Below are positions 1-29,869 of a stretch of 64,000 nt of DNA, piece after piece. Both the position numbers and the translations under genes were made by a program. Numbering within the stretch: position 1 is the first letter of the stretch; every line of letters begins with the position of its first letter. Below the pieces are notes generated by a model. That model was given only the letters and a program-made list of their open reading frames with translations. It did no database searches and was not told where the DNA came from. The stretch is from a virus (taxonomy: Duplodnaviria > Caudoviricetes): positions 67,213 to 131,212 of IMG/VR virus record IMGVR_UViG_3300044846_003114. The stretch is one strand, 5' to 3'.

Positions 1-176
1 TTAGTGTAGTGAGTAATTGTTTCTTCGTCCACCGATTCTGTTACCAAATCAAAATTGTTTTTTTTACACAATTTTTCCAATGCGGGTAGACACGCATCGT
101 AGGTTTCTTCATCATCGAAGATTGCTACCAGTTCAGCATATTTGCCGTTATCCAATTCGAAATAAACTTTTACCAT
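1..176 (-). CDS. hypothetical early protein (runs off window edge)
   Basis: ATG at 176 downstream of TATATTTG promoter (199-206); open frame MVKVYFELDNGKYAELVAIFDDEETYDACLPALEK... Confidence 0.7.
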   Translation of the reverse strand, partial: MVKVYFELDNGKYAELVAIFDDEETYDACLPALEKLCKKNNFDLVTESVDEETITHYT

Positions 177-457
177 AGTGTTGTTTTTTTAGTGTACACA
201 AATATACAACTAATACTTTTATAATCCAAATTTATTTTTAAATATTTTTTTGAGTTAGCGCATGCGCGCAACAATGCTCATGTTTACTGGGGTAATACAA
301 CAGCAGATCACGCTGCAGATCATATCTCCAATAATTACTGGGACACCCCAGTAAACTTCAGCGCTGGTCCGGGCTGTGTTTGCGCTGAGGGTAATACATA
401 AAAAAAGGTGAACATTTCTGTCCACCTTCTTATTCACTAACCACACACTAAAAACTA

Positions 458-772
458 TTAATTCGATATTCTCTTTTCTGTTCTAATACACTCAGCTTCC
501 CACTGCTCACATAAAAGTAATACATCTCCCAACACATTCTCATTCAACTCCCAATAACTTTCTTCATAGGTGTCGATAGCGTCCGAACTACTTGAACGAG
601 GTTCGTACACATTTACTTCTACATAATCTTCGGTAAAATATTCCCCAAGTCCTACATAGTTACCCAATGTACCAACAAGAATACTATTCTCACCTTCTAA
701 TTCTCCAATACTAAAACATCCATTAACTTTTAAGATGTCCGTAATACGATTAATGATTTCTGAATTTTCCAT
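458..772 (-). CDS. hypothetical acidic early protein
   Basis: 104-aa ORF, last gene of cassette before terminator at ~400-430. Confidence 0.75.
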   Translation of the reverse strand: MENSEIINRITDILKVNGCFSIGELEGENSILVGTLGNYVGLGEYFTEDYVEVNVYEPRSSSSDAIDTYEESYWELNENVLGDVLLLCEQWEAECIRTEKRISN

Positions 773-773
773 T

Positions 774-1046
774 TTAAATTGATTTAGTGTTATCCCAAAT
801 TATATTACCATTCTCGTCATACAACTCCTCCGTAGGTTCTCCACCATTTTCTTCGGGTATTAAACCTTCAAGAGTTTCGTCAATATGTTCCCACGGCAAT
901 TCCGTGTTATCACCTCTCTCACGAAAAGCAATTGCTAACTTATGAGCCTCTTCCAATGTTTCAGCTTCAATTTCAAATTCGGTACGATACCATGTCGTTA
1001 CCTTTGTGTCTAAATGAAAGTTAAATGTCGTTTGGGTCTGTGCCAT
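774..1046 (-). CDS. DpnD/PcfM-like small protein
   Basis: TTWYRTEFEIEAETLEEAHKLA resembles the DpnD/PcfM (V/I)EA.s.EEA motif. Confidence 0.5.
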   Translation of the reverse strand: MAQTQTTFNFHLDTKVTTWYRTEFEIEAETLEEAHKLAIAFRERGDNTELPWEHIDETLEGLIPEENGGEPTEELYDENGNIIWDNTKSI

Positions 1047-1152
1047 TTTCTATTGATTTTTTAATTGATAAAATAAGTAATACAATCATTATCAGGAAGG
1101 TTACTATAACCCCAAATCCCAATGATAAATAATATAAAATATTCATTTCCAT
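1021..1152 (-). CDS. small membrane protein (43 aa, not in ORF track)
   Basis: MEMNILYYLSLGFGVIVTFLIMIVLLILSIKKSIENGTDPNDI*, fills the gap between operon genes. Confidence 0.6.
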   Translation of the reverse strand: MEMNILYYLSLGFGVIVTFLIMIVLLILSIKKSIENGTDPNDI

Positions 1153-1157
1153 AAATT

Positions 1158-1355
1158 TTAAATTTCACGAATATACATATAATCTTCCAAATCTTCCAAA
1201 GGTATTCTTCCATTATTTGAACTATAATACCCTTGAACTTTATATCGTTCCTTCCATTTGTCAAAAGCCTCAAATGCTTTTTCCTTTGAAGTGTAGTAAG
1301 GTCTATCGAATTCAATCGTAAACCCGTCGGGGGATAAAACTTCGTACCTTGTCAT
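1158..1355 (-). CDS. hypothetical early protein
   Basis: 65-aa ORF tightly packed in operon. Confidence 0.7.
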   Translation of the reverse strand: MTRYEVLSPDGFTIEFDRPYYTSKEKAFEAFDKWKERYKVQGYYSSNNGRIPLEDLEDYMYIREI

Positions 1356-1356
1356 A

Positions 1357-1554
1357 TTAATCTTGTTTAATTAAAGTTTGAGAATACTCTTGTGTAATAA
1401 GTGTGTCCATGTGTTGTGAACCACTATAACGATTTACTTCTCGTTGGGTTACAACTTGATGAGAACCGACGGGAATAAACCCTTCGTTAATGTACTTGTT
1501 TACTTTTTCGGTCAATCCTTCGGGGGATGAACTTGTTAATACTTTGTACTCCAT
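1357..1554 (-). CDS. DUF1737-like protein
   Basis: YKVL...L.EKVNKYINEGF.PVG...YSQ.LIK pattern. Confidence 0.65.
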   Translation of the reverse strand: MEYKVLTSSSPEGLTEKVNKYINEGFIPVGSHQVVTQREVNRYSGSQHMDTLITQEYSQTLIKQD

Positions 1555-1876
1555 ATCTTTTTGTTTTAGTGTATGACAAAGATATAACTTTTATTTCATT
1601 ATACAAATTTATTTTTAAGAATTTTTTACTGCGCACATTTAAGACTTTTTACTGTGCACATTTAAGAATTTTTTCCTGCACTATCATTCCTAAACATTAC
1701 TGGGTTGAATTGTTAACCAGCGCAAATTTCCTGATCAGCGCGCGCAAAACTGGCTAATGATTACTGGGGTAATACAACATAACCCAGTAAACTTATGGGA
1801 TGATCAGGGACGAGAAATCTGTGGACATAAAAAAAGGTGAGACTTTCGTCCCACCCTTTAATTCGGTGTGTGTTTT

Positions 1877-2299
1877 CTATTTAGAATAGAAATCATCCAT
1901 TCGTTGAAGTACCCTATCCAAGTTACAACCACTTTCAGTTTCCCCATTCCAATAGAAGTGATTCATTCTAATTACCTCTAACGAATTTCCAAGTTCCTTA
2001 CTATGTACGAACTCATTATAACCACCCGAGTAATGTAACCCGTCATTGTCAATTCGTAAATTGTTACGATACTCGATAGTAACATCTTTACCATTGAAGT
2101 TTTTAGTGAACTTAACTCCTTTGATTTTATCTCCTTGAAGTCCACCACTTTTACCTTTACGAACCCAACCAAAATCTTTAATGTAGTCAGTCAAACCATC
2201 TACGATTTTAGTTGATACAATTTCCGAGAAAGTTTCTCTTTCTTCTTTTTGTTTTTTCAAGAACTCCTTATAGGTTCCGATGTTTTGTAACATACTCAT
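1877..2299 (-). CDS. hypothetical early protein
   Basis: ATG at 2299 lies downstream of promoter at 2323-2330; terminator at ~1830-1860. Confidence 0.75.
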   Translation of the reverse strand: MSMLQNIGTYKEFLKKQKEERETFSEIVSTKIVDGLTDYIKDFGWVRKGKSGGLQGDKIKGVKFTKNFNGKDVTIEYRNNLRIDNDGLHYSGGYNEFVHSKELGNSLEVIRMNHFYWNGETESGCNLDRVLQRMDDFYSK

Positions 2300-2658
2300 A
2301 TCATTTATATTTTTAGTGAACACAAATATACATCATAAAACTTTATTATCCAAATATTATTTTACTTTTTTTTAAGAATTTTTTTTCACCTGTGATCACA
2401 GGGGGAACATTACTGGGGTAATACAAATAACCCAGTAAACTTATCACTCTGTCGGAACATGTGGTACTTCGGGTACTTGTGGTACATCTTTTGAGGAACT
2501 TGTGGTACTTCGGGTACAAGAGGAACATTGGCGCTGTGCGCAGGTGAACATTACTGGGACACCCCAGTAAACTTGATCACCGGTGCTGTGCAGATACAGT
2601 GCACAGGTAATACATCCCAGTAAAGTTCCGACCCGGTCCACAGTGTGACGGGGTCATC

Positions 2659-2703
2659 AAACAAAAAACCCCCGAACTAAAAGTCCGAGGGTTTAACAAA
2701 TAA
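2659..2703 (-). terminator. intrinsic terminator, near-identical copy at 6731-6774
   Basis: AAACAAAAAACCCCCGAACTAAAAGTCCGAGGGTTTAACAAATAA; hairpin plus U-tract on - strand; related terminators end the other cassettes (~3805, 4318, 4968, 5797, 7583, 8390, 9386, 10675, 11685). Confidence 0.85.
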
Positions 2704-2718
2704 TCTTTAACCTATGTC

Positions 2719-3579
2719 TTACACCAAATGTACAAGTTCCTTGAAGATTTGTCTCTCACGATTTCCGTAAGTTCCGAACATCTTATTTTCAGAATTGTCA
2801 CCCTTACCCATACTATGAGTTGTGTATTTTGTTACACCACTAAATAAACCCCAAATGTTATCACCCTTTTCTTGAATTTCACCATTAAGGTCAACATAGA
2901 ATCTACTTAATTTATTTTGTGTCACGGTAGATAATGAATCAACATCCTTAATATCAACATTCTTTTCGATATTGAATAACGATTTGATTACTCTATCCTT
3001 GATAATATCATCGAAACGAGTTTCACTCATTTTAACGATAGAACCGAACACATTCTTTTCTTCTTGTACTACACCCTCAATTTGTCGACAGATATCTTCT
3101 ATCTTTAATTCCATATTCTTTGTATGACGTACCTTTGAATCTAAATCTTTGTACACACCGAAGAATGTGTTTTGACAACTGATAGTTTTCGAACTAGGAC
3201 CGAACGATAATGAAGTCGAACCATCGAAAGAATTAATCCCAGTAACATAACCCTCGATTCTATCCGTCCCCAAAGTTAAGTCATTAGATTTTAACTGAAC
3301 GAATACTTTTCGTCCACCACCGAACAAACCACCCCTATGAACATCAAGTCCAGTTTGTTGGGACACTTTGAACAATAGTTCCATCATTTGGTCATTCTGA
3401 TATGGTACATAACCATTAGAGTGAATACCCAAGATTGTACTATCATCCTCACGAACGATACCAATTTTATCAGGGATAATAATTCCTGACGAAGTTTGAA
3501 GTCCTTCGGTACGGACTTTCCAATTTAAACCAGTTCTATCCAAGAACTGACTAACCCGATTGTTTTCTACGATTTCCAT
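2719..3579 (-). CDS. DUF932/DUF945 family phage/plasmid protein
   Basis: GLNWKV, Y.PYQN, G.FGGGRKVF, NSFDGS, I.C.N, K.RHT and WGLFSGVT.Y motifs. Confidence 0.85.
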   Translation of the reverse strand: MEIVENNRVSQFLDRTGLNWKVRTEGLQTSSGIIIPDKIGIVREDDSTILGIHSNGYVPYQNDQMMELLFKVSQQTGLDVHRGGLFGGGRKVFVQLKSNDLTLGTDRIEGYVTGINSFDGSTSLSFGPSSKTISCQNTFFGVYKDLDSKVRHTKNMELKIEDICRQIEGVVQEEKNVFGSIVKMSETRFDDIIKDRVIKSLFNIEKNVDIKDVDSLSTVTQNKLSRFYVDLNGEIQEKGDNIWGLFSGVTKYTTHSMGKGDNSENKMFGTYGNRERQIFKELVHLV

Positions 3580-3847
3580 CTGTTTAATTTTTTATGGTTT
3601 AATAAATGATTGTATGACAAAGATAAATTAATCTGGAGTATAATCCAAATTTATTTTTAAAAAAAACTAATTAATTTTTTTGGTGAGGATCCACCTGTGA
3701 TCAGAGCTCCCAATATTACTGGGGAATCGAATACGTTTACAGATATATACGGATACACCCCAGTAATTTTATGGGATGATCAGGGACGGGAAATCTGTGG
3801 ACATAAAAAACCCCCACATTTCTGTGAGGGTTAAAATCTAAAAAATT

Positions 3848-4117
3848 TTATTCTTTGGTTTCAAACTCCAAACCACTATAAAGAAATTCGGTAATATGAT
3901 TAAGGAACTTCACATACAATTCGTTATCAAATTGAATACCACTACCACTATTTTGGACAATCCTAACGAAAGACATTTTTTTATCAATCGGTAGGTTATC
4001 CATTATCCTTTCGGTAAAATCACTACCAACCCACTCATAATTAATTTCACTATCAACGTGTCCTTCAACAACTGAATAGATAGTTTTCTTTACAATTTCA
4101 ATTTCTTCTTGTGTCAT
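3848..4117 (-). CDS. hypothetical early protein
   Basis: single-gene cassette with own promoter and terminator. Confidence 0.75.
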   Translation of the reverse strand: MTQEEIEIVKKTIYSVVEGHVDSEINYEWVGSDFTERIMDNLPIDKKMSFVRIVQNSGSGIQFDNELYVKFLNHITEFLYSGLEFETKE

Positions 4118-4184
4118 ACATTTTATTTTTTAGTGTCTACAAATATACAACAATAATTGTTATACACCAAATTTATTTTTTAAA

Positions 4185-4873
4185 TCTGACCCTGGTATCC
4201 AAATACATTACTGGGTAATACAAGAACACCGGTTCAGGGACCTGCCGAGAATTAATACTGGGTAAACACCCCAGTAAACTTACCGGACGATCAGGTCGAG
4301 AAAAATTCTTGGACATAAAAAAAACCCCCGACAGAATCGGAGGTCTTATTAAAGTAGGTGGTTTTATTACACCAACAAATCTTGTACTGAATGTTCGGAA
4401 GTTTTTTCATCCCACACATCATCATTCCAATCCTCACCGACTTGGGTACAAGTCTTGTAGAAAATTTCAACAACACCATTCTCGATGGTGACAACTCCTT
4501 CGGTTCTCTCGTTGATAGGAATCAAATCCTTTTCAACAAGGAATAGAAGTACGAGTTCGTACTCCAAAAATTGGTCGGTGTTCTCCGACTCAATGTATTC
4601 AACTTGACCTTGGAAGTCCAAGGAGAACTCAAACTCCACATTGGAATTTAGAGTTTTTTCGATTTGGGAAGTGAACAAAGTGTCCATAGTGTGTAGGTCT
4701 ATTGGTTAGTAGACAATACAAATATAAAAAAGAAATTCCGTTTTACAATACATTTATGAAAAATTATTTTACTTTTTTTCTGACCCTGGTAATCCAAATA
4801 CATTACTGGGTAATACAAGAATTCCAGTTCGGGGACCTACTGGAAATTAATACTGGGTAAACACCCCAGTAAA
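4185..4873. repeat. ~94-bp imperfect direct repeats (4185-4278 and 4779-4873) flanking one gene cassette
   Basis: TCTGACCCTGGTA(A)TCCAAATACATTACTGGGTAATACAAGAA...AATTAATACTGGGTAAACACCCCAGTAAA in both copies. Confidence 0.9.
4367..4687 (-). CDS. hypothetical highly acidic protein
   Basis: 106 aa, E/D-rich; single-gene cassette. Confidence 0.75.
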   Translation of the reverse strand: MDTLFTSQIEKTLNSNVEFEFSLDFQGQVEYIESENTDQFLEYELVLLFLVEKDLIPINERTEGVVTIENGVVEIFYKTCTQVGEDWNDDVWDEKTSEHSVQDLLV

Positions 4874-5023
4874 GTAATACAACGATCAGCTCAGGACCTG
4901 ACTTACGGGTAAAGGTAAATTCCCCAGTAAAGTAATACGTCGAACCGGTCGAGGACCTGATACGAACAAAAAAAAAGGATAGTCTTTCGACTACCCTTCT
5001 TCACCTTTCCAACCTATGTATTT

Positions 5024-5587
5024 CTACACAACTACTCCTTCTAAATGTTGTAATACGGACTTCCCTTCCACCCAACAATCGTCCTCACTATAATAACTTC
5101 CACAACATTCAACTAATGTTTTGTGTTCGTGACCTTTATCACAAGTTTCAATTTCGTAAACTTTGTATTGGTAAACTTCACCCGTTAAGTATTCATCATA
5201 AATTCTAACTTCACTATTCATAATCAAACTTAAATTTTCTACACCCCTTTCAAAATCCTTACCACACATTTTGTTTAATTGTTTTTCACTAATGAAAATC
5301 CAACCAACTTGACCACTATCCCATTGACAACTGAACGGACTTGTACTAATAGTAATTCCACTATGGTCGTACATATACAAAGGTTTAATCAAAAGGACTT
5401 TATGGTCACTTACAATTTGTTCCCTCAATTCATCCCAATTATCAAAGTCACTTGACTTGTAGTCTGTTTTGTCACCAATATCATATCTTTTGTGAAAACA
5501 TACAATAGTAGTAATGTTATCCCAATCGGTTCGTGGATTCATCGGGTCGTTATCGTGTTCGACAACCAATTCAAATTTTCTTTTCAT
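5024..5587 (-). CDS. conserved phage/plasmid hypothetical protein
   Basis: NPR..WDN, PLYMYDHSGITIS, WDSGQVGW and YL.GEVY motifs typical of an early mobile-element family. Confidence 0.75.
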   Translation of the reverse strand: MKRKFELVVEHDNDPMNPRTDWDNITTIVCFHKRYDIGDKTDYKSSDFDNWDELREQIVSDHKVLLIKPLYMYDHSGITISTSPFSCQWDSGQVGWIFISEKQLNKMCGKDFERGVENLSLIMNSEVRIYDEYLTGEVYQYKVYEIETCDKGHEHKTLVECCGSYYSEDDCWVEGKSVLQHLEGVVV

Positions 5588-5848
5588 TGTGTTTATTTTT
5601 TAGTGTACACAAATATACTACTATTATTATTATACACCAAATTTATTTTTTAAATCTGATGGAAAAGTTTTTTTTATTACTGGGATGTATGACAAGGATA
5701 CCCCAGTAATTTTTTGAGTCCGTCTTCCTGATGAGGTTCATCTTGTAATACCCAGTAATTAAAACACAATTTCTCCGAACCAAAATTTCTTGGACAAAAA
5801 AAATCCACCCCTTTCGGAGTGGACTTCGGTTAGTAGGGGAACTAACCT

Positions 5849-6379
5849 TTAAATGAACTCGTAAATGTTTCCGTTGTATGACACTTCTTTAACATTATCC
5901 AAACTTACCGATAAGGTTTGTACCTTTCTTTCACTCGGTTGATTTTTGTAATTGTTTGACTTCACTAACCAACTATCAAACAAAGTTTGGTCAATAGGGT
6001 TTCCCTCAAACTCAAATTCAACTTTTGGTTTCACTTCCATAAACCACTCGTATTGAAGATAATACTTTTTTGTATTTTCGTTGTAAAGGATAACATTGTT
6101 GATATGGTTACCAACTTTATTTTCACTTACTTGAAAATTACCTTCACCACCACCCTTAATTTCATTACCCTTTACTCGTTGTTCGTACTCACCACCGATT
6201 AAAACTCTAACCGATTTTTTCTTCACAACTTTTCCATAATACTTGTTCAAACCTTCCCTACCACCTTTGTTCATTTTAGGGATAGTGTGTGTAACTAAAT
6301 TCATAAATGTAGGATTTTTAACCTCGTTCATCATTTTGATAAACTCACCTTGTAGGATTTTGAAACGATTTTTTTTCAT
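5849..6379 (-). CDS. hypothetical early protein
   Basis: 176-aa ORF with downstream terminator. Confidence 0.75.
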   Translation of the reverse strand: MKKNRFKILQGEFIKMMNEVKNPTFMNLVTHTIPKMNKGGREGLNKYYGKVVKKKSVRVLIGGEYEQRVKGNEIKGGGEGNFQVSENKVGNHINNVILYNENTKKYYLQYEWFMEVKPKVEFEFEGNPIDQTLFDSWLVKSNNYKNQPSERKVQTLSVSLDNVKEVSYNGNIYEFI

Positions 6380-6787
6380 AACATTATTTTGTTTATTTTT
6401 TCAATACTCTAAATTACGAATTTTATCCAATATAAAAAAATATATTTAATACTTTTTTATCCACATTCTTAATTTTTTTTTGTGGACAAATTGTGGATAA
6501 CTTTTTCCCCGTGATCCAGAAAATAAATTACTGGGGAAACGAAGAAAAAAAAATTACAAGGTTGTAAGAAATAAAATACTGGGGTATAAAGAAAAAATCT
6601 GTTGATCTACCTGTTCGATATTACTGGGATGTACCCCAGGAAACTTTTCCTGGACGATCAGATCCAATGGTCGTTGTAATGTAATACCCAGTAATTTTTT
6701 CCTGGAGACTCAGGTTCTACTTCTTCTTCCAAACAAAAAACCCCCGAACTAAAAGTCCGAGGGTTTAACAAATAAATCGTGTCGAGT

Positions 6788-7000
6788 CTAATACATTATT
6801 TCAAACTTATCTTCTTCGGGAATTACGGATAAACTTCTTCCGTTATCCCAATTCACACCATAATAACCCATATCATCAACGAATACAATCGTACCCATTG
6901 TGTTAGGTTGAATAGGGTTTGTCTTTGGGTCGTCATCCATTAGAATCAATCTAATTCTTTTACCAACTAATTCTTTTCTGATTTTGAATAGTTCAAACAT
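6788..7000 (-). CDS. DUF4314 protein
   Basis: MDDDP...GT..FVDDMG...VNWDNGRSLSVIP.ED.F. Confidence 0.8.
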   Translation of the reverse strand: MFELFKIRKELVGKRIRLILMDDDPKTNPIQPNTMGTIVFVDDMGYYGVNWDNGRSLSVIPEEDKFEIMY

Positions 7001-7011
7001 TGTTAAAGATT

Positions 7012-7212
7012 TTATTCGTTAGAAAATAACATTTCCATTAAACCAATAACGACGGGATGAATGTCTTTATTGTTTGAATCTCCCCATTGTTTAACTTCCC
7101 CATTTCCTTGAATGTGAAAATTTGTTTTTGAACCATCGGTCAGTTTGAACCAACCCTTGACTTCATTGTCCCCAATGAATTTCATTTTTTGTGTTGTGAT
7201 TTGTGTAGTCAT
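7012..7212 (-). CDS. hypothetical early protein
   Basis: ATG at 7212 downstream of promoter at 7234. Confidence 0.65.
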   Translation of the reverse strand: MTTQITTQKMKFIGDNEVKGWFKLTDGSKTNFHIQGNGEVKQWGDSNNKDIHPVVIGLMEMLFSNE

Positions 7213-7644
7213 TTTGTTTAGATGTTTAGTACCCAAATATACAACTATTATTTTTATATACAAACATTATTTGTTAAAATTTTGTGAAAGAATTTTTCCC
7301 GTGTTGTTACATGTAATTGATTACTGGGGGTAATACGAAGATGTGGTTTTCCCATCTCACGGTGTTCACATTTACTGGGTGTTCACGGTCCGTGAACAAG
7401 TGTCATACGTGAACATAGAATATCCCAGTAATTTATTAGCATGTGCATGTGCCGCTACGGCGCCTGGTGTTGCGCTGTCTGGCGCTTGAATTCCGTGAAA
7501 AATACTTATTTCAAATGAAAAACGCTTATTATCCATAATATATTGTGAAATACGATTATCATTGGTAATACGCACAAAAAGAAAAACCCCCACCATTTCT
7601 GATGAGGGTTCACTTACTAACCACACTATTAAACAAAACTATTA

Positions 7645-7791
7645 TCACATATCGTACGCAAAAGTAGGGATAAAAAACCAAAACATAAAATAAAATGTTA
7701 AACCAATTAGTATTGCCCCTAAAATAGCATCCCAAAATTCCCTTCGGTCGTTTTTATATGTCCACACAAAGGTTTCTATAAATTCTTTCAT
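7645..7791 (-). CDS. small membrane protein
   Basis: MKEFIETFVW...AILGAILIGLTFYFMFWFFIP, one TM helix. Confidence 0.6.
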   Translation of the reverse strand: MKEFIETFVWTYKNDRREFWDAILGAILIGLTFYFMFWFFIPTFAYDM

Positions 7792-7792
7792 C

Positions 7793-8152
7793 TTAATAAG
7801 AGTTTTGGTTATAGGTATCATACGTGTTATAATTTCTTCCACGATTATTTTCTCGATAGTCATTACGAGAAATACGTTGAGGATATCTCGGTCTTGGTAC
7901 AAAGGAGTTTTCCATTTGTTCATCAATCGGTTGAACATTCCAATCTAAATCCATTTGTTTAGAATTTGCCCAATGAATGTTATAAATTGTTTCAAGTCGT
8001 TCAGTTACAATGATATAACTATTCTCGTTGAAGTGAACTTTGGTTACAGGCTCGCCCGTATTCTTGTCAATGATTTCATACATTGAGTGCACATTTTGTG
8101 GATTCATTACCACTGGTCGTTTTGAATTTGAATTTGTCAGTTTAATTAACAT
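7793..8152 (-). CDS. FlbD-like small protein
   Basis: MLIKLT...PVVMNPQNVHSMYE...TKVHF...IIVTERLETI resembles the FlbD fold; N/R/Y-rich tail. Confidence 0.5.
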   Translation of the reverse strand: MLIKLTNSNSKRPVVMNPQNVHSMYEIIDKNTGEPVTKVHFNENSYIIVTERLETIYNIHWANSKQMDLDWNVQPIDEQMENSFVPRPRYPQRISRNDYRENNRGRNYNTYDTYNQNSY

Positions 8153-8433
8153 AACATTTACATTTAAGGTGAATAATATAATTCCTTTTTGTTGATACAA
8201 AGATATAACAATAATATTAAACCACCAAATTTATTTAAAGAAATTTATCTAATGGTTCCGACGGGAACAATGTATTACTGGGGAAATGAAGATGATGTAA
8301 AATCTGTGGTTCCTCCTGAAATCATTTACTGGGTAATACACCCCAGTAATAAATCCGAATCGACGAGGAGGACAAAAAATCTTGAGCATAAAAAAACCCT
8401 CGTAGAAACGAAGGTCTTTATTTAAAATCTTTA

Positions 8434-9102
8434 CTACTTTATCCGTCTTACAACGACCAAGACCATTGCCGCCCCTTTCTTAGCTCCGTCATTGTTGTCG
8501 AGATACTCGAAAATGTTCTCAATGTCATACTTGTAACCACCCTCACGATTAATAAAAGTTTTGATAACCCTCATAGTTTTACCATTGTCTTGCCCTTTGG
8601 GTATTTGATAAGAGTTCAGCTTATCGATAGTATTACAAAAAAGTGTCGACGGCCCTGGTGTGATTCGTTTGTTGAATGTTAAGGACAAAGTACCACCCAC
8701 CTCGATAATATCATTTCTAAATGTATGTCGAAGCTCTTCGTGGAATGTGCCAATTTGACCACAATAGTCTAGTATCAAATGGCTATACTCCCCTTTGTTA
8801 GCATTAAATATAATATCCGCAATTGAGCCAAAGTAAAGCGATGGAGTTTTCCCAACGAAATACTTCGCCTTTTGTTTCTTGATATTGCGTTTTAGCCTGT
8901 CGAAGGTTAGTTCATCTCGTTCGCACATAACATAGCGATACTTTCGAGAAACATCCTGGTAGATTGTTTTCTCAATTTCAAAATGTTCAGCGGGCAAAGA
9001 TAGAATTTTGTAGTTCTTCGTTTCCGAGTTGTGGATTGCTTCGACCATTATATTTCTGGCCGTACTCTTGTTCGTTCCTTTGTGATTGGTGAAGGTGTTC
9101 AT
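8434..9102 (-). CDS. putative class I SAM-dependent methyltransferase-fold protein
   Basis: ILSLPA (motif I-like), MCERD acidic strand end, ILDYCG (motif IV-like), GGTLSLTF. Confidence 0.45.
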   Translation of the reverse strand: MNTFTNHKGTNKSTARNIMVEAIHNSETKNYKILSLPAEHFEIEKTIYQDVSRKYRYVMCERDELTFDRLKRNIKKQKAKYFVGKTPSLYFGSIADIIFNANKGEYSHLILDYCGQIGTFHEELRHTFRNDIIEVGGTLSLTFNKRITPGPSTLFCNTIDKLNSYQIPKGQDNGKTMRVIKTFINREGGYKYDIENIFEYLDNNDGAKKGAAMVLVVVRRIK

Positions 9103-9438
9103 ATCATAACATTAAAAGATTAAAGAATACACAAATATAATACTTTTTCCATTATACACAAAATAAAAATGTTAATCTTTTCTAAAAATTTATTTATCGG
9201 TCTGACGGGAAAGTTTATTACTGGGGAAATGAAGATGAAGATTTTCTGTAAGAGTAAAAAATCATTTACTGGGACACTCCACCCAGTAATTTAATACTGA
9301 TGATCATCGGAGATTTCTTCAGACTTCACGGAGCATATCCCAGTAAAATATCCGGATGGGAAGATGATGTAGAAATTCTTGGACATAAAAAAAGGGATAT
9401 CATTTCTGATACCCCAATTTTCACTAACACCACAAATA

Positions 9439-9699
9439 CTAATCTTTATAAATGATTTTATTTGTAATGTCTTTTATAATCTCTCGTATTGTATTACCCC
9501 TAACCCCAACTTCAACCATACAACCATAAATGTTGGTTATTATTGTGTAAACGTGTTTAAAGTCACGATACACTTCACGATTACCCCAACCATTACCTTT
9601 CTTAATTGTTAATCTCGTGGATTCCCAACCTTTCTTATTGTTAACGTAAATTGTTATGTTGAAATTAGTATCGTAATACGTCTTTCTATATGTTTCCAT
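9439..9699 (-). CDS. hypothetical protein
   Basis: 86-aa ORF coupled to upstream gene. Confidence 0.65.
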   Translation of the reverse strand: METYRKTYYDTNFNITIYVNNKKGWESTRLTIKKGNGWGNREVYRDFKHVYTIITNIYGCMVEVGVRGNTIREIIKDITNKIIYKD

Positions 9700-9700
9700 A

Positions 9701-10336
9701 TTACTTAGTTAAGATACCCAACTTATGTAGGTCGTTGTAATTAAATGTGTTATTCAACTTCTTACCGAATATGTTTTCGTAAATGATTTCCATATTAACC
9801 TTATTCAACTTCGGTTTCTTAATTCCATACTTCTCACAAAGTTTAACAAAGTTTCGTGTATCACAAACGATTTCAACATTCCTACTTTCTTCGGTATTAA
9901 ACCATTGATTACCCGACTTGGTACCAACCCCACTCACACCAATAGTACAGAATTTAAATCCACCACAATCTCCCCACCAATTATCTTTCATATCCATTTC
10001 ATACACTTTGGTAATTAGAACAAAGATATTCTCATTGTTCCAATGTTTTCTAACCACGATTTGACCTTCAACGAATTTTTTAGTGTCCTTCTTAACAATC
10101 TTTTTAGTTAATCTTTCCACTTCTTCCTCGTAGATTCTTCTCCTCATCATATAATCACTATACATACTATCCTTGATTTTATCCACTCTACTAACGAAAG
10201 AGGTTTCACTTTGATAATACTTGTTCTCCAATTCTTTGATTTTTTCTTTTGTCATCAAGATTTCATTTTCGAAATTTCTTAATGTTGTCGTTTCGTCTTT
10301 ACGAGGTCGACCAACCTTTCTTTTTAATGTTTCCAT
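9701..10336 (-). CDS. hypothetical protein with N-terminal AT-hook and coiled coil
   Basis: KRKVGRPRK AT-hook motif. Confidence 0.7.
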   Translation of the reverse strand: METLKRKVGRPRKDETTTLRNFENEILMTKEKIKELENKYYQSETSFVSRVDKIKDSMYSDYMMRRRIYEEEVERLTKKIVKKDTKKFVEGQIVVRKHWNNENIFVLITKVYEMDMKDNWWGDCGGFKFCTIGVSGVGTKSGNQWFNTEESRNVEIVCDTRNFVKLCEKYGIKKPKLNKVNMEIIYENIFGKKLNNTFNYNDLHKLGILTK

Positions 10337-10729
10337 TTGTTTATGTGTTTAGTGTCCACAAATATAAAACTAATTCCATTATATACAAAATAAAAATGTT
10401 AATCTTTTCTAAAAATTTATTAACCGGTAAACGGGGGATAATGTATTACTGGGGAAATGAAGATGAAGAATTCCTCAAGAGGTGAAATGGATATTACTGG
10501 GATGTATTACCCAGTAATTGATTTCCGTTGGACGGGGTTCCAAAATGGTCTATCATACATGTAATACCCAGTAATGTAATACCGACGATCGTTATAAATT
10601 TCTTCAGAGTTCTGTGTTGAATATCCCAGTAAATTATCTTACCTGTCACGGTGTGTCGGAGATTCCTCCTCAAACAAAAATCCCCCGAAGAAAAACTCCG
10701 AGGGATTCAACAAGAATGGAAAAACAAAT

Positions 10730-11068
10730 CTAACTTTCAATCAACCTATCAATAACATCAACTAATTCATCAAACATAATGTCGTGGTCAATTGTTTCAA
10801 CAACAACCATCATATCGTTCACTAATCGGACTTCATAATAATCTAAACCATTTAATGTAATCAATACGAATTGTTTCCACTTCGCACCCGTTACTTTCAA
10901 TAGAATACCTTTAACATAACCATCCTCCGTTAAACCTATACGGATAAGTTTTGTTACACCCCAACACATAAAAGGAATACCCCCTTGTGTTTTGTACAAT
11001 ACATACATAGTGTCACTGGGGTTAAACTCTCGTACCCCCAAACTGGAAAGTTTTTGTTCCGTTGTCAT
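10730..11068 (-). CDS. hypothetical early protein
   Basis: single-gene cassette. Confidence 0.75.
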   Translation of the reverse strand: MTTEQKLSSLGVREFNPSDTMYVLYKTQGGIPFMCWGVTKLIRIGLTEDGYVKGILLKVTGAKWKQFVLITLNGLDYYEVRLVNDMMVVVETIDHDIMFDELVDVIDRLIES

Positions 11069-11738
11069 ATCATTTTGTTTTTAGTGTATACAAATATAAC
11101 GCTATTACCGGATTATTCCAAACTTTTTCTGTTAAATTTTTGTGAAGGTGAGGTTCACCAGAAATATATTCCTGGGGTACACCCCAGTAAGGTTTTTTGA
11201 AAAAACAAGAAAATTTTTTTTATATTGTTTTTTTAACCCAGTAAACTTTTTCGTAATGTTACAACCTTGTAATTTTAAAAAAAAGTGAAAAAAAATTTGG
11301 AGTGTACTAGAAATAGTAAAAAATCGGAGAAAAGTGAAATAACATTACTGGGTTGTAGGGAAGGATATTTTTTTTTTAGAATATAAAGATAAAAATTTTT
11401 TTTGTTGTTTACAAACTTTTTTTATTACTGGGTTAACTTTTTATGATCCCCGGACGATCATCCAAAATAAATTACTGGGGTGTGCAGTTGAGTCGTACAC
11501 CCGGATGTCGTGGAAAACATTCCTGGGGTAATAATTCTAAAATGTGCGCAGTAAAAAGTCTTAAATGTGCGCAGTACCCCAGTAAACAAAAACAACGATC
11601 AGGGAAAAAATCAGGTTTCCTTCCAAAATAACCCAGTAAGGTTTCTTGTAATGTTACAGTGTGAGGATGATGAGTGGGAGAAATAAAAAACCCCCACCAT
11701 TTCTGATGAGGGTTTGGGGGAGGGGGAACACTAATCTT

Positions 11739-11858
11739 TTATCTCCACAAGTTCACTTTACCAACAACACAATGAGGTGTCTTCGGTCTGTGATGACGAT
11801 TCACAACACAAGATGAGAACAATACGATGACCATAATTAAACTGAATACTTTTTTCAT
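11739..11858 (-). CDS. small putative lipoprotein (39 aa, not in ORF track)
   Basis: MKKVFSLIMVIVLFSSC lipobox. Confidence 0.6.
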   Translation of the reverse strand: MKKVFSLIMVIVLFSSCVVNRHHRPKTPHCVVGKVNLWR

Positions 11859-11863
11859 TTACT

Positions 11864-12067
11864 TTATTTTAATTCTTGTTCGGGTAAACTGATGATTAAT
11901 AACAACACACCAAATAGGAATACGATAGTCCATAGACCACCTATCCAATTTAAACTACTACCAAATTGAATACTTCCGTCTGTAAACAAACCGAGGAATA
12001 GGAGTAGGGAACATACCGATATCAATGTCATCCCGACATTGAACATTCTGTTGTAGGTTTTTTTCAT
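11864..12067 (-). CDS. small two-TM membrane protein
   Basis: two hydrophobic segments; ATG at 12067 downstream of promoter at 12087. Confidence 0.7.
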   Translation of the reverse strand: MKKTYNRMFNVGMTLISVCSLLLFLGLFTDGSIQFGSSLNWIGGLWTIVFLFGVLLLIISLPEQELK

Positions 12068-12166
12068 ATCATTTGTTTTTAGAACACAAAGATATAAAAC
12101 TATTTCCATTATACCAAATACTAATGTTAATGTTTTCCTAATAGATGTGGGACCTCAGGATACACA

Positions 12167-12270
12167 GGGGGGTTATTACTGGGTAGACCTCCCTATACCC
12201 ATAGGTGGGGGGTCCCCCCTCCCCGTATCCCCCCTTAATTAGGGGTTTTTGGGGGGGTCTAAACAGGGGG
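12167..12270. other. G/C-run palindromic element at the early/late boundary
   Basis: GGGGGG-T-CCCCCC, CCCCT-TAATT-AGGGG and several G5-G7 runs in otherwise AT-rich DNA. Confidence 0.7.
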
Positions 12271-12376
12271 TCAATGCCGTAACAGAAATTTTTCTGGAAA
12301 AAAAGTCAAAAAATGGACTTTACCTCCTAAAGTAGAAATAAAATTTTCCAGATTTTTTTTAAGATATTTATATCAT

Positions 12377-13126: not shown

Positions 13127-13633
13127 CTAATAATCGAACAATACCATATTGTTTTCTTCATCAATACCAAGGTTACTTAGGTGGAAATCTAATAACACCA
13201 AACCTCCCAACTTTAACATATTGAACTCTTGGATAATCCCAAGTATATTACCATATAAAACATCGTTGTCTTTAACTTCTTCTGATAAGTCATTTTTCTG
13301 ATTAACTATATGAGCCATGATGTTACTCGAATGTTTTTTAACAATATTCGCCACATCCATAAATTCAGGTACATCTGTGATAAGTTTATACTTGTGTTTT
13401 ACTATAATGTATCTATCCTCATCAAATACGTTCTTCCCCGTCTTTTTCATGGAATATATCTTGGGGAAGTGTTTCAGGTTACCCTTGAATTTTAAAATTC
13501 TCTTTGATACTAATATTTCGGTGTCATCCTCGGTTAGTTTGTATATCTTACCGTTCTTTTCATATACCGACCCCCAATTACCTTTTCCTATTTTCTCGTA
13601 GTGGGATTCCTTTATTATGTCTATTAGTTTCAT
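13127..13633 (-). CDS. minimal protein-kinase-like fold protein
   Basis: Gly loop IGKGNWGSVY, YKLT lysine, catalytic DFHLSN, metal-binding LFD. Confidence 0.75.
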   Translation of the reverse strand: MKLIDIIKESHYEKIGKGNWGSVYEKNGKIYKLTEDDTEILVSKRILKFKGNLKHFPKIYSMKKTGKNVFDEDRYIIVKHKYKLITDVPEFMDVANIVKKHSSNIMAHIVNQKNDLSEEVKDNDVLYGNILGIIQEFNMLKLGGLVLLDFHLSNLGIDEENNMVLFDY

Positions 13634-13737: not shown

Positions 13738-15153
13738 ATGAAAATCAACGAACTTTACGAAACAGTAATTAATTATCAAACACAGAACAGGGTATTCTTT
13801 CAGAATGCCGAGAATTGGGACATTAGAAGATTGGGTGAAATGTATAAAGAAGGTGAACTAATCTTGCAGGATTGGTTTCAACGAGACTATTGTTGGAACA
13901 AACCTCAGATATGTTCATTAATGCACACCTTGCTACACACCCCAACTTTATTACCCGAGATTGTACTCATTAGAATCGGAGACAAGTACCATGTGGCTGA
14001 CGGTCACCAAAGACTTCGTAGTATTTTATTGGAAGTTTTAACCAATCCCGATTTCAAGTACTTTTCAAAAGAACTTACCGAATCAACCAAGTACTTTAAC
14101 GTGGGACCTAAGAATATGGAACTATGGAAGGAGTTTAGTAGGGAGATTGAAAGAAAAACTATTACAGTTAAAGTTATCATCAATAATAACTTGGATGAAA
14201 ATGAATTACGTAACCTCAGTTCTTATGTCTTTAAGAAATGGAATAATGGTACCGCTTTGAGCCCTGCCGAGAAGAGAGGAGCATTTCCATCCGATTTAAA
14301 CATCAATATCGTTCAAAGACTTAAGAATACCATTCCATTGGAAAAACAAATATCTCTATTGGTTTCAAGAACGTCAAGTAAGAATAAGTTTAATGAGTTG
14401 GTGGAAAAGGTTTTCTTTCACTTCATGAATCCAAACGCATTACATGACCCAAATGATGATGGGTATAGTATCATACATTCCTATTCCGAAGATGAATATA
14501 GTGGTAAATTTAAAACCTTCTATAAGTTGTTTAACGTTATGACGGATACGGTTTATAACTATACCAACTTCAATGGACATTTTGGACCAGGTGCTTGTTG
14601 TATGAGAGATGTTCTTACCTTTGTAAATGATTTATATCTTAAGAATGAAATTAAATCCTTTGATGAGTACAGTTGGTACCTTACATCTGTTCTTGATACT
14701 CTACATACAACTTATTACAATAACAAACGATTTGACGATTACCATGGAGGTAACTACGAAATAATTGATATGGAAATCAATAACACTTGGTTTAAAGGTT
14801 TCTTCTGTCATTTCGGTAAAGGTCAAGATCATAAATTCGAAAATCGTAGAACATTCCTATATGACAATAGAGAGTTGTTTGGCAAACTTATTGAGTATGA
14901 TCACCAAAGATTGTTTACACAGGTACAGAAACAAATAAAATATATTGAACAAAATAGAGTCTGTGTTGGATTCGATGGTGGCGGTTGCAGATACCACGGG
15001 ACCGAACCTTTGTCATATGGTGAAATGGAAGGTGACCATATCGTTGAACATACCAATGGAGGAAAAACGGTTATCGAAAACCTTCAAATGTTATGTATGG
15101 AATGCCATTCCGAAAAAACAAAACAATTCAATACAAAAGAAATTATTGAATAA
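13738..15153 (+). CDS. DUF262 (GmrS/ParB-like) domain + C-terminal HNH nuclease
   Basis: FQRDYCW, VADGHQRL, F..WN.G..LS..E; C-terminal GDHIVEHTNGGKT..ENLQMLC.ECH..K. Confidence 0.85.
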   Translation: MKINELYETVINYQTQNRVFFQNAENWDIRRLGEMYKEGELILQDWFQRDYCWNKPQICSLMHTLLHTPTLLPEIVLIRIGDKYHVADGHQRLRSILLEVLTNPDFKYFSKELTESTKYFNVGPKNMELWKEFSREIERKTITVKVIINNNLDENELRNLSSYVFKKWNNGTALSPAEKRGAFPSDLNINIVQRLKNTIPLEKQISLLVSRTSSKNKFNELVEKVFFHFMNPNALHDPNDDGYSIIHSYSEDEYSGKFKTFYKLFNVMTDTVYNYTNFNGHFGPGACCMRDVLTFVNDLYLKNEIKSFDEYSWYLTSVLDTLHTTYYNNKRFDDYHGGNYEIIDMEINNTWFKGFFCHFGKGQDHKFENRRTFLYDNRELFGKLIEYDHQRLFTQVQKQIKYIEQNRVCVGFDGGGCRYHGTEPLSYGEMEGDHIVEHTNGGKTVIENLQMLCMECHSEKTKQFNTKEIIE

Positions 15154-29635: not shown

Positions 29636-29869
29636 ATTGTTATAAATAGTGTAATACAAAATAAAAATTTAAACTTTTTTAATATAACTTATCTATTATC
29701 CCAAATTAATTTTTTAATGACAAATAGTCATGTGAAATTTAACCATTTTGGGTGACAAGTTCTTATTTATTTGTGTATGGAAAAAAATAATATAATCGAT
29801 TCCAAACTTTCTTATATGGTTATTTTTCCGTATATTTTACAAAACAATAAATTCTTAAACAAAAAACGA

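What the first reader, a model, noticed from the sequence alone, without database searches (positions are those of the whole stretch)
240..12190. Early region is an array of autonomous cassettes separated by phased, convergent TTACTGGG box arrays
Seen: about 14 cassettes each have their own Bacteroidota promoter and terminator, and each ~150-500 bp spacer holds 1-9 TTACTGGG boxes. Orientation is ordered: + copies on the left and CCCAGTAA copies on the right, often meeting as a hairpin (TTACTGGG-ACAC-CCCAGTAA at 335-354 and 2551-2570). Same-orientation neighbours are spaced 44-58 bp, roughly 5 helical turns (284/335, 8275/8326, 9218/9266, 10446/10494, 10510/10567/10625, 11425/11472). The motif stops at ~12.2 kb, and I saw only one copy inside a CDS (3238). 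Inference: a dedicated cis-acting system. Options are (a) Chi-like end-protection sites, since the 3' ends face the spacer centre, the polarity that would stop a RecBCD/AddAB-type nuclease entering from a break in the spacer; (b) phased binding sites for a phage DNA-organising or injection protein; (c) recombination sites for cassette shuffling.
Basis: partly seen in the sequence, partly recalled or inferred. Interest (0 to 1): 0.9.

Follow-up and report, generated by a model that had tools for sequence, protein, structure and literature searches.

The report
Oriented docking words between phage early genes
An uncultivated freshwater giant phage fills the untranscribed gaps between its self-contained early genes with oriented copies of one strict 8-letter DNA word, placed at set distances from each stop signal and each start signal; related phages keep the layout but use other words, so it is most likely the landing site of an unidentified DNA-binding protein.

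Summary
TTACTGGG occurs 48 times in the window (about 2 expected) and 64 times in the 131-kb contig; 63 copies lie in one 19-kb leftward block of small genes that starts 6.7 kb left of the window. In each spacer, sense copies follow the terminator and antisense copies precede the next host-type promoter. The first sense copy starts 37-45 nt after the T-run (13 of 13). The last copy usually ends 53-57 nt before the -33 element, and the other values differ by about 10-nt steps. Box-to-box spacing is about 50 bp but is not helically phased. Across nine close relatives the eight box positions are 97% conserved, against 85% for the rest of the spacer. More distant relatives keep the layout with other words (TTACTGGA, TTACCGGG, TGTTTGGC, TTCTGTGG). 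The octamer is not enriched in candidate host genomes, so a Chi role is unsupported. Cassettes are gained, lost and moved at these spacers, probably as a by-product. Best reading: docking sites of an unidentified, phage-specific DNA-binding protein that insulates and controls the early cassettes. The scan found this system before on related DNA (e1-5963085, e1-5411852).

The parts
1..12183 (-). Window part of the box zone. The zone is a leftward-transcribed block of small genes that continues to genome 60,090, which is 7.1 kb left of the window.
   Evidence: Strand map. 63 of 64 contig copies lie in genome 60,489-79,388. GC skew is negative up to about 12 kb.
177..457 (-). Spacer. Terminator T-run begins at 406. 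Sense box at 347-354; antisense boxes at 335-342 and 284-291. The -33 TTTG is at 230.
   Evidence: T-run to first box 45 nt; last box to -33, 53 nt.
1555..1876 (-). Spacer. T-run at 1835. Sense box at 1783; antisense boxes at 1761 and 1697. -33 at 1607.
   Evidence: Distances 38 nt and 89 nt.
2324..2718 (-). Double spacer. T-run at 2668. Sense boxes at 2616 and 2563, antisense at 2551; then sense at 2431 and antisense at 2410. -33 at 2354. The 60-aa ORF 2346-2528 that overlaps it is doubtful.
   Evidence: Distances 39 nt and 55 nt. Window 1786-2535 is absent from relatives G001 and G002.
3238..3245 (-). Sense-strand box inside the DUF932 gene (2719-3579).
   Evidence: The in-CDS boxes are 100% conserved in relatives.
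3580..3847 (-). Spacer. T-run at 3810. Sense box at 3759; antisense box at 3716. -33 at 3649.
   Evidence: Distances 38 nt and 66 nt.
4118..4366 (-). Spacer. T-run at 4324. Sense box at 4270; antisense box at 4208. -33 at 4171.
   Evidence: Distances 39 nt and 36 nt. The cassette at window 3815-4268 is absent from G001, G002 and L043.
4688..5023 (-). Spacer. T-run at 4976. Sense boxes at 4923 and 4865; antisense box at 4803. The promoter does not meet the strict pattern.
   Evidence: T-run to first box 37 nt.
5588..5848 (-). Spacer. T-run at 5803. Sense boxes at 5751 and 5702; antisense box at 5677. -33 at 5641.
   Evidence: Distances 37 nt and 35 nt.
6380..6787 (-). Spacer. T-run at 6740. Sense box at 6687; antisense boxes at 6621 and 6528. 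No strict consensus promoter. Contains a DnaA-box-like pair.
   Evidence: T-run to first box 40 nt.
7213..7626 (-). Spacer. T-run at 7580-7586. Sense box at 7424; antisense boxes at 7372 and 7321. -33 at 7264. This is the exception to the terminator lock: 144-150 nt.
   Evidence: Window 7350-7564 is replaced by 103 bp in five relatives' loci.
8153..8433 (-). Spacer. T-run at 8396. Sense box at 8342; antisense boxes at 8326 and 8275. -33 at 8229.
   Evidence: Distances 40 nt and 45 nt.
9103..9438 (-). Spacer. T-run at 9393. Sense boxes at 9339 and 9282; antisense boxes at 9266 and 9218. -33 at 9162.
   Evidence: Distances 40 nt and 55 nt. A one-unit deletion 9217->9266 is seen in a related contig.
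10337..10729 (-). Spacer. T-run at 10680. Sense boxes at 10625, 10567 and 10510; antisense boxes at 10494 and 10446. -33 at 10389.
   Evidence: Distances 43 nt and 56 nt.
11069..11863 (-). Long double spacer. T-run at 11690. Sense boxes at 11632 and 11578; antisense boxes at 11472, 11425 and 11345; then sense boxes at 11237 and 11183. -33 at 11122.
   Evidence: T-run to first box 45 nt.
12110..12376 (.). Divergent region that closes the block. It holds the last box, at 12176-12183, and the first promoter of the block (-33 at 12118).

Best explanation
The octamer is the specific docking word of an unidentified sequence-specific DNA-binding protein, most likely phage-encoded. Each bound unit recognises the 8-bp word and occupies roughly 35-45 bp on the word's 5' side. 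Units therefore stack head-to-tail from the terminator inward (sense copies) and from the promoter inward (antisense copies), and they meet 3' end to 3' end in the middle.

The arrays fill the untranscribed gap between one cassette's terminator and the next cassette's host-type promoter. The outermost sense unit abuts the terminator T-run. There it would act as a polar fail-safe block to read-through, which insulates the cassettes. The outermost antisense unit sits on a fixed helical face about 55 bp (plus or minus 10n) upstream of the -33 element, where it could switch the whole early promoter class on or off together.

Shown: strict conservation of the word, confinement to one block, orientation order, the distances, and replacement of the word in relatives. 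Inferred: that a protein binds, that the phage encodes it, its footprint, and what it does to termination and initiation.
For: (1) Selection on exactly 8 bp. Across 9 related contigs the box positions are 96.97% identical over 1648 cells. Other spacer positions are 85.2% and codon position 2 is 94.8%, while the bases directly flanking a box are only 64-79%.

(2) Strictness. The zone holds 63 exact copies and only 17 one-mismatch copies.

(3) Location. Boxes lie between terminator and promoter, so mostly in untranscribed DNA. Of consensus promoter sites, 15 of 16 intergenic ones in the zone have 1-5 boxes within 300 nt upstream; 0 of 13 outside the zone do.

(4) Anchoring to terminators. The first sense box starts 37-45 nt after the T-run in 13 of 13 terminators that are followed by a box within 120 nt. 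In four phages with four different words, 44 of 68 block terminators have a sense word within 70 nt, against 0 of 89 terminator-like sites outside the blocks.

(5) Anchoring to promoters. The last box ends 35, 36, 45, 53, 55, 55, 55, 56, 56, 57, 66 or 89 nt before the -33 TTTG. Rayleigh R = 0.79 at 10.5 bp, p about 0.0005, against R of 0.20-0.33 at 7, 8 and 13 bp. L172, with another word, gives 64, 65, 65, 75, 76.

(6) Asymmetric exclusion, pooled over the reference and 8 other-word loci. The 58 convergent gaps go down to 4 bp. The 48 tandem gaps are never below 31 bp (median 46.5). Only 8 gaps are divergent, and none is below 45 bp.

(7) Same layout, different word. TTACTGGA: 7 of 8 mixed clusters convergent. 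TTACCGGG: 7 of 7. TTCTGTGG: 5 of 5. GTTTTGGC: 6 of 6. TTAGTGGG: 4 of 4. Each word is confined to one block of its genome: 46 of 48, 35 of 39, 40 of 47 and 25 of 27 copies.

(8) Complementarity of central pairs stops at the word. Outer flanks match at 2-5 of 10 positions in the reference, and there is no inner extension. The unit is therefore a word and not a hairpin.

(9) Seven in-CDS copies use all three reading frames, are all sense-oriented, and are 100% conserved. Sense copies outnumber antisense copies 35:28 in the reference and 21:8, 31:9, 23:6 and 24:3 in relatives. This points to a polar role relative to transcription.
Against: No binding protein was found.
- The 20 zone proteins and 10 flanking proteins show no DNA-binding domain. 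The only hint is a sub-threshold Rha-like match (E = 0.0046, below the cut-off) in window 13127-13633.
- Five genomes of this group, including two that are 97-100% complete, have no HTH_3 or Rha match.
- No core protein family tracks the word class. That test lacks power, because word similarity follows overall phylogeny.
- The protein atlas gave no lead.

Other difficulties:
- An invariant 8-mer with few degenerate copies is stricter than most regulator sites.
- The sites lie about 75-250 bp upstream of the promoters, too far for simple occlusion.
- The central gap varies in the reference (4-58 bp), which argues against a rigid dimer.
- The promoter phasing test was chosen after seeing the data, and one cluster of values at 53-57 nt dominates it.
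- No expression data exist for this region.
- The 5'-side footprint is inferred from spacing alone.
Confidence: 0.55

Rival explanations
1. The words are recombination signals. Either they are targets of a dedicated site-specific recombinase or nicking enzyme, or they are conserved micro-homologies. Their function would be to let promoter-gene-terminator cassettes be gained, lost and shuffled. This would be a PeSL-like or integron-like platform.
For: Cassette-sized differences between close relatives have junctions in the spacers. Stretches of 748 bp and 452 bp are absent from G001 and G002. A 1155-bp stretch is replaced by 277 bp in L042, and a 943-bp stretch by 462 bp in L043 and L063. Several alignment ends lie 0-20 nt from a box. 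A related contig shows joints at box edges (3725, 5688->6687, 6536, 7328, 11352). It also shows one exact one-unit deletion that shares the 8 nt (9217->9266) and one relocated block (11107->5677). HNH endonuclease genes flank the block on both sides. Each cassette is flanked by inverted copies of the word.
Against: Local alignments naturally stop at the boxes, because boxes are islands of identity in diverged spacers. Junction-at-box counts are therefore biased. In the 452-bp case the crossover lies inside about 60 bp shared by the two spacers, which is ordinary homologous exchange. In the 748-bp case the two edges are not at equivalent points of a word. Recombination sites do not explain several features: the 37-45-nt lock to terminators, the helical phasing to promoters, tandem arrays at about 50 bp, or conserved sense copies inside CDSs of the syntenic core. 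No integrase or transposase domain appeared in the 30 zone and flanking proteins scanned.
Confidence: 0.15
2. The word acts in RNA. Transcripts that read through a terminator carry the sense word about 40 nt downstream. There it is cut or bound by a phage factor, or it pairs with the antisense copy to form a back-up hairpin.
For: Sense copies predominate. Sense-only copies lie inside CDSs. The distance after terminators is fixed. Ten central pairs in the reference could form an 8-bp stem.
Against: The spacers lie behind strong intrinsic terminators, so they are mostly untranscribed. Tandem arrays, the helical phasing to the -33 element, and the asymmetry of gaps are properties of duplex DNA. 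Many spacers in relatives have a lone sense word with no partner (L192, L180). Stems never extend beyond the word.
Confidence: 0.08
3. The word is a promoter element read by one of the two phage-encoded sigma factors, comparable to the single 8-bp late promoter of T4 (recalled from memory). It would re-express or antisense-silence the early block later in infection.
For: Relatives G009-G012 each encode two ORFs that carry sigma-70 region 2, and none encodes its own polymerase. The element is a strict 8-mer with no second conserved element. Most copies are sense-oriented and lie upstream of genes.
Against: The word is almost absent from the other roughly 300 kb, where middle and late genes lie: 3 of 48 copies in the 97%-complete G009. 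Pairs that overlap 3' to 3' with 4-bp gaps, and tandem arrays, are not a sensible promoter layout. Antisense copies would fire into the upstream terminator.
Confidence: 0.07
4. The word is a Chi-like or other polar signal for a DNA translocase or nuclease, as in the first reader's option (a).
For: It is an asymmetric strict 8-mer. The 3' ends face each other. The copies in the left part of the block all point one way.
Against: In 5 genomes of the best host candidates the octamer is not enriched: 30, 26, 93, 39 and 71 copies, against 56, 59, 113, 45 and 82 for the reversed control. No strand bias is visible. The host itself is only inferred from a gene of 67-70% identity. Related phages use different words, whereas a Chi word belongs to the host. 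Chi does not explain intergenic anchoring or restriction to one 19-kb block.
Confidence: 0.04

Closest known systems
PeSLs (promoter-early stem-loops) in the hyperplastic regions of T4-type phages RB49 and phi1. Sources: Arbiol et al. 2010, PMC2839356 (abstract and section 13 read); Comeau et al. 2014, PMC4122927 (abstract read).
   Same: Both are arrays of small, mostly orphan early genes. Each gene has its own host-type promoter and stem-loop terminator, concentrated in a variable region. Insertions, deletions and replacements between close relatives map to these regulatory spacers.
   Different: PeSLs are compact: the stem-loop lies within or next to the promoter, and they have no third element. 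Here terminator and promoter are 110-400 bp apart. The gap is filled with oriented arrays of a strict octamer that belongs to neither the promoter nor the terminator, is under its own selection, and changes between related phages.
Operator and stoperator sites of Cluster A mycobacteriophage repressors (L5 gp71 type). Sources: McGinnis et al. 2022, PMC9283540 (passages read); Mavrich and Hatfull 2019, PMC6550527 (passages read).
   Same: Both have many copies of a short asymmetric word in short intergenic spaces. The word is oriented relative to transcription and is proposed to act both on promoters and on elongating polymerase. Related phages have distinct words.
   Different: Stoperators are 13 bp, number about 20-30, are spread over the whole genome, and point one way. 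They belong to temperate phages with a known immunity repressor. Here the word is 8 bp and confined to one block. It occurs in both orientations in each spacer, in ordered arrays of about 50 bp, and is locked to terminators. No repressor gene or sign of lysogeny was found.
Class I activator sites (CAP-type) upstream of bacterial promoters. This comparison is recalled from textbook knowledge; no paper was read.
   Same: The promoter-proximal site lies at distances from the promoter that differ by whole helical turns.
   Different: The sites here are further upstream, are single asymmetric words and not dyads, and come with terminator-locked partner arrays.

Membership tests
PeSL regulatory cassettes | A host sigma-70-type early promoter plus a stem-loop terminator in the spacers of a variable region rich in orphan genes | tested here: met
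   12 strict -33/-7 promoters and 13 hairpin-plus-T-run terminators in the window part. Most of the 20 zone proteins have no family. The promoter consensus itself is recalled from the literature and was not read here.
PeSL regulatory cassettes | A compact composite: the stem-loop lies inside, overlaps, or sits directly beside the promoter | tested here: not met
   Terminator and promoter are separated by box arrays. The first box starts 37-45 nt after the T-run, and the last box ends 35-89 nt before the -33 element.
PeSL regulatory cassettes | Indels and replacements between close relatives occur at the elements | tested here: met
PeSL regulatory cassettes | Formation of encapsidated mini-circles by exchange between neighbouring elements | not testable with these tools
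   This needs PCR or long reads on phage DNA.
L5-type stoperators | An asymmetric word present in 20 or more copies | tested here: met
   A non-palindromic 8-mer with 63 copies in the zone.
L5-type stoperators | Sites distributed across the whole genome | tested here: not met
   63 of 64 copies lie in 19 kb of 131 kb. 45 of 48 lie in 17.7 kb of a 97%-complete 324-kb relative.
L5-type stoperators | One orientation relative to transcription | tested here: inconclusive
   Sense copies predominate (35:28; relatives 21:8, 31:9, 23:6, 24:3), and all 7 in-CDS copies are sense. However, most spacers also hold antisense copies.
L5-type stoperators | A cognate immunity repressor encoded by the phage | tested here: inconclusive
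   No DNA-binding domain in the 30 zone and flanking proteins. No HTH_3 or Rha match in 5 genomes. An unrecognised fold cannot be excluded.
L5-type stoperators | Related phages have distinct words | tested here: met
Chi sites | The word is strongly over-represented in the host chromosome | tested here: not met
   26-93 copies per 1.9-5.6 Mb in 5 candidate-host genomes, at or below the reversed-word control. The host is inferred only.
Chi sites | Strand skew that follows replication direction in the host | tested here: inconclusive
   Forward and reverse counts are similar: 14/16, 15/11, 46/47, 15/24, 32/39. Replichores were not mapped.
Chi sites | Attenuation of RecBCD or AddAB at the word | not testable with these tools
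   This needs a biochemical assay.
Integron attC cassettes | An imperfect extended inverted repeat that folds as a hairpin | tested here: not met
   Complementarity stops at the 8-bp word. Outer flanks match at 2-5 of 10 positions.
Integron attC cassettes | Promoterless cassettes read from a common promoter next to an integrase gene | tested here: not met
   Each cassette has its own promoter and terminator. No integrase domain in the flanking genes scanned.

The most novel reading that the evidence does not exclude
The word arrays are the cis sites of a dedicated cassette-exchange platform. A phage enzyme that recognises the word, such as a nickase or recombinase and possibly one of the flanking HNH proteins, would cut or pair DNA at the oriented words. 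Complete promoter-gene-terminator cassettes would then be excised, captured and reordered. This would be a phage counterpart of the integron for anti-host genes, with each phage lineage using its own private word.
Probability: 0.12. Interest if true: 0.9.

Novelty: new variant of a known kind. Interest (0 to 1): 0.62.

Why it matters
If the reading holds, a widespread group of uncultivated freshwater giant phages (the marker protein used here has 4767 database relatives) organises its first-expressed, fast-changing accessory genes with a third regulatory element besides promoter and terminator. That element is an oriented protein-docking lattice. It seals each gene off from its neighbours and could switch the whole class together.

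Because the word differs between related phages while the layout stays the same, the system offers a natural series of matched site and protein specificities. It could be mined for orthogonal insulators and switches for Bacteroidota. It also shows where new genes enter these genomes. Finally, it gives a simple sequence signature for finding early, probably anti-defence, gene blocks in metagenomic phage contigs.

Tried and rejected
**Close relatives in GenBank phages.** None by megablast. Protein searches gave only distant hits: 4 records at 47-51% and 294 records all below 60%.

**Long duplicated repeats as the cause.** Rejected. Only about 9-12 nt around each box recurs, and the flanks are not conserved.

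**A peptide motif as the cause of in-CDS boxes.** Rejected. They use three reading frames.

**A second half-site.** GATC lies 15-17 nt on the 5' side of 14 of 63 boxes, but those positions are no more conserved than background (0.72-0.85). Left open.

**GC-rich spacers.** Not supported: 0.373 against 0.351 for the zone.

**Extended hairpin or cruciform.** Rejected for the reference and L232.

**Helical phasing of box-to-box spacing.** Rejected.

**Position of the block relative to genome ends.** I first read G011 as having terminal repeats. The repeat is only 99 bp, probably an assembly overlap, so the ends are unknown and I draw no conclusion.

**Search for the binder.**
- PHROGs and Pfam on 50 proteins in all.
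- Word-class tracking of core families.
- Whole-genome comparison of 1818 ORFs. It lacks power because word class follows overall relatedness.
- Protein atlas.
- Genome scans for HTH_3 and Rha.
- No candidate emerged.
- The T7-type polymerase search had no positive control and shows nothing.

**Expression.** No RNA holder was listed. The single run laid (X1, contigs, probably DNA, share 0.06) gave no information on transcripts.

**Papers.** The octamer search returned 914 papers of primer noise. 'Jumbo phage' plus 'Sediminibacterium' returned 3 papers, seen as a listing only, none on this topic by title. A five-term search for jumbo phage intergenic inverted repeats returned 0. I therefore found no description in print, within this library.

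**Not used.** Structure prediction and complex prediction, for lack of a candidate.

Full report
**Observation.** TTACTGGG occurs 48 times in the window, all between 284 and 12183. Dinucleotide-preserving shuffles give about 2 (0 of 100 reach 48). The window is bases 67,213-131,212 of a single 131,212-bp viral contig, which CheckV rates 39% complete. The contig holds 64 copies; 63 lie in 60,489-79,388 and one at 29,307. This zone coincides with a block of small genes on the minus strand (60,090-79,321), flanked by plus-strand modules on both sides. The finding is therefore cut by the window edge: 6.7 kb of the zone lies to the left.

**Anatomy.** I read each spacer in the direction of transcription.
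- Each spacer has this order: stop codon; hairpin with T-run; 1-3 sense copies of the word; 1-3 antisense copies; an A/T-rich stretch; -33 TTTG; -7 TAnnTTTG; gene. The promoter consensus is recalled from the Bacteroidota literature and was not read here.
- Sense copies precede antisense copies in 12 of 14 mixed clusters. The other two are double spacers.
- The first sense copy starts 37-45 nt after the T-run in 13 of 13 terminators that are followed by a box within 120 nt. One terminator, at window 7580-7586, is an exception at 144-150 nt.
- The last copy ends 35, 36, 45, 53, 55, 55, 55, 56, 56, 57, 66 or 89 nt before the -33 element. These values share a helical phase: Rayleigh R = 0.79 at 10.5 bp, p about 0.0005, against R of 0.20-0.33 at 7, 8 and 13 bp. 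I chose this test after seeing the values.
- Same-orientation neighbours are 44-58 bp apart in 17 of 22 cases, but they are not helically phased (R = 0.14).
- Gaps are asymmetric, pooled over the reference and 8 loci with other words. The 58 convergent gaps go down to 4 bp. The 48 tandem gaps are never under 31 bp. Only 8 gaps are divergent, and none is under 45 bp. This is what one expects if each unit needs about 35-45 bp on the 5' side of its word and almost nothing on the 3' side.
- Complementarity of central pairs stops at the word.

**Selection.** A scan of viral contigs for the convergent pair returned 78 loci. Nine contigs among them are syntenic relatives at 80-95% nucleotide identity.
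- Over these relatives, box positions are 96.97% identical (1648 cells). Other spacer positions are 85.2%, and codon positions 1, 2 and 3 are 92.9%, 94.8% and 83.3%. The bases directly beside a box are only 64-79%. Selection therefore acts on exactly eight bases.
- The word is strict: 63 exact copies against 17 one-mismatch copies in the zone.
- Seven copies lie in credible CDSs, six of them left of the window. They use all three frames, are all sense-oriented, and are 100% conserved.

**The boxes mark the block, not the promoter type.** Consensus promoters of the same type occur outside the zone. There are 13 intergenic sites outside, and none has a box within 300 nt upstream. Inside the zone, 15 of 16 do. 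In the relatives the word is again confined: 27 of 28, 61 of 61 and 14 of 14 copies.

**The layout is older than the word.**
- Homologues of a conserved zone protein (PF17338, GP88-like; 4767 database relatives) led to 77 viral loci with 36-99% identity.
- Close relatives use TTACTGGG. Others have their own dominant 8-mer: TTACCGGG (29 copies in L195), TTACTGGA (40 in L232), TTAGTGGG (13 in L187), TGTTTGGC (up to 29, many loci), TTCTGTGG (L172) and GTTTTGGC (L189).
- With these words the layout recurs. Mixed clusters are convergent in 7 of 7, 7 of 8, 4 of 4, 5 of 5 and 6 of 6 cases (L195, L232, L187, L172, L189). In L172 the T-run to first sense word distance is 42, 44, 44, 44, 44, 44, and the last word to -33 distance is 64, 65, 65, 75, 76.
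- Not all loci fit. L169 keeps TTACTGGG but in another arrangement. L188 has mostly antisense copies. L201-L209 show no dominant word. L224, L237 and L200 carry other kinds of repeats.
- In whole contigs, each word is confined to one block: 46 of 48 (G009), 35 of 39 (G010), 40 of 47 (G011) and 25 of 27 (G012) copies fall in the block's 10-kb bins.
- In four phages with four words, 44 of 68 block terminators have a sense word within 70 nt, against 0 of 89 terminator-like sites elsewhere. G011 could not be oriented.
- In the TGTTTGGC group many spacers hold only one sense word after the terminator. The minimal unit is therefore terminator, about 40 nt, then a sense word.

**Cassette turnover.** Between the reference and its relatives, whole cassettes are present or absent (748 bp and 452 bp) or replaced (1155 by 277 bp; 943 by 462 bp), with junctions in the spacers.
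- At base level, the 452-bp case is a crossover inside about 60 bp shared by two spacers. In the 748-bp case one edge is the outer edge of a box, and no homology is seen at the junction.
- Contigs of a lake-water run (probably DNA) add more joints at box edges, a one-unit deletion, and a relocated block.
- Alignments tend to end at conserved boxes, so these counts overstate precision.
- The conserved core of the block is six genes left of the window. The window part is the variable part.

**Chi test.** The phage's TonB-dependent receptor gene is 67-70% identical to genes of Sediminibacterium MAGs. That is only a lead to the host. In five such genomes the octamer occurs 30, 26, 93, 39 and 71 times. 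The reversed control occurs 56, 59, 113, 45 and 82 times. Forward and reverse counts are similar. This does not fit a Chi word, and neither does a word that changes between related phages.

**Who reads the DNA.** Five genomes of the group have no match to the multisubunit polymerase domain. Four of them each carry two ORFs with sigma-70 region 2. The T7-type search had no working control. All transcription therefore probably uses host polymerase. A sigma-dependent promoter word would be expected across middle and late genes, where the word is almost absent.

**The binder.** I did not find it. Details are under Tried and rejected.

**Interpretation.** The data fit docking sites of a sequence-specific protein that co-evolves with its word. 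It would form oriented arrays that exactly fill the untranscribed gap, touch the terminator on one side, and face the promoter on the other. I think the most likely functions are a polar fail-safe block to read-through, which insulates the cassettes, and common control of the early promoter class. These functions are inferred, not shown. Rivals are recombination signals (0.15), an RNA-level element (0.08), a phage-sigma promoter (0.07) and a Chi-like signal (0.04).

**Comparison with known systems.** PeSLs of T4-type phages share the cassette architecture and the shuffling, but they are compact and lack a third element (PMC2839356, abstract and section 13; PMC4122927, abstract). L5-type stoperators share the asymmetric, oriented, lineage-specific word that acts on initiation and elongation. 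They differ in being 13 bp, spread genome-wide, pointing one way, and tied to a known repressor in temperate phages (PMC9283540 and PMC6550527, passages). I file the system under neither.

**Novelty.** My searches of the paper library found no description, and supplements were not seen. This scan has reported the same system twice on related genomes (e1-5963085, e1-5411852). My independent results agree with them on the terminator lock and on the changed word. I rate it a new variant of a known kind, with interest 0.62.

Noticed in passing
genome 17321, 37121, 41267, 44647, 50283, 58757 (left of the window; loci L001-L003): Host-type consensus promoters outside the box zone share an extra conserved stretch, TTTGGAATAT-CAAAA, between the -33 and -7 elements. 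This looks like a second promoter class with its own internal site, and it has no boxes.
   Followed up: no
whole contig; window 240-12190 for the spacers: GATC is strongly depleted: 113 copies against about 398 expected from base composition. However, 34 copies lie in the 19.6-kb zone, and 14 boxes have a GATC 15-17 nt on their 5' side.
   Followed up: partly
G009:C1:312364-312570 and 70736-70921; equivalent places in G010, G011 and G012: Each related giant phage encodes two ORFs with sigma-70 region 2, of about 273 aa and about 235 aa. No multisubunit polymerase domain was found. No sigma match was found in the 39%-complete contig that holds the window.
   Followed up: partly
genome 59323-59877 (L003:19323-19877) and window 13738-15153: HNH endonuclease genes flank the box zone on both sides.
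   Followed up: no
window 6380-6787: This spacer contains a DnaA-box-like pair, TTATCCACA and TGTGGATAA, about 35 nt apart.
   Followed up: no
window 29777-33154: A full-length TonB-dependent receptor gene in the phage is 67-70% identical to genes of Sediminibacterium MAGs. It is the only lead to the host.
   Followed up: partly
L224, L237, L200: More distant phages with the same marker protein carry other repeat systems. L224 has 46 copies of AGTACTGG, in divergent or palindromic arrangement. L237 has 28 copies of CGTATATG, all in one orientation, in steps of 9 nt. L200 has TGTTGATG in steps of 12-18 nt.
   Followed up: no
genome 1-282 (L001): The first 30 bases of the contig recur at position 252, which suggests a tandem repeat at the left contig end.
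   Followed up: no
G011 contig ends: The 'direct terminal repeat' of the 310,542-bp record is only 99 bp exact. It is probably an assembly overlap of a circular or permuted genome.
   Followed up: partly
window 36889-38139, 39922-41442, 42760-45099; L001:13157-15758: There are several glycosyltransferase genes and one methyltransferase-like gene. One is 47-51% identical to genes of Xanthomonas and Stenotrophomonas jumbo phages. This hints at modified DNA.
   Followed up: no
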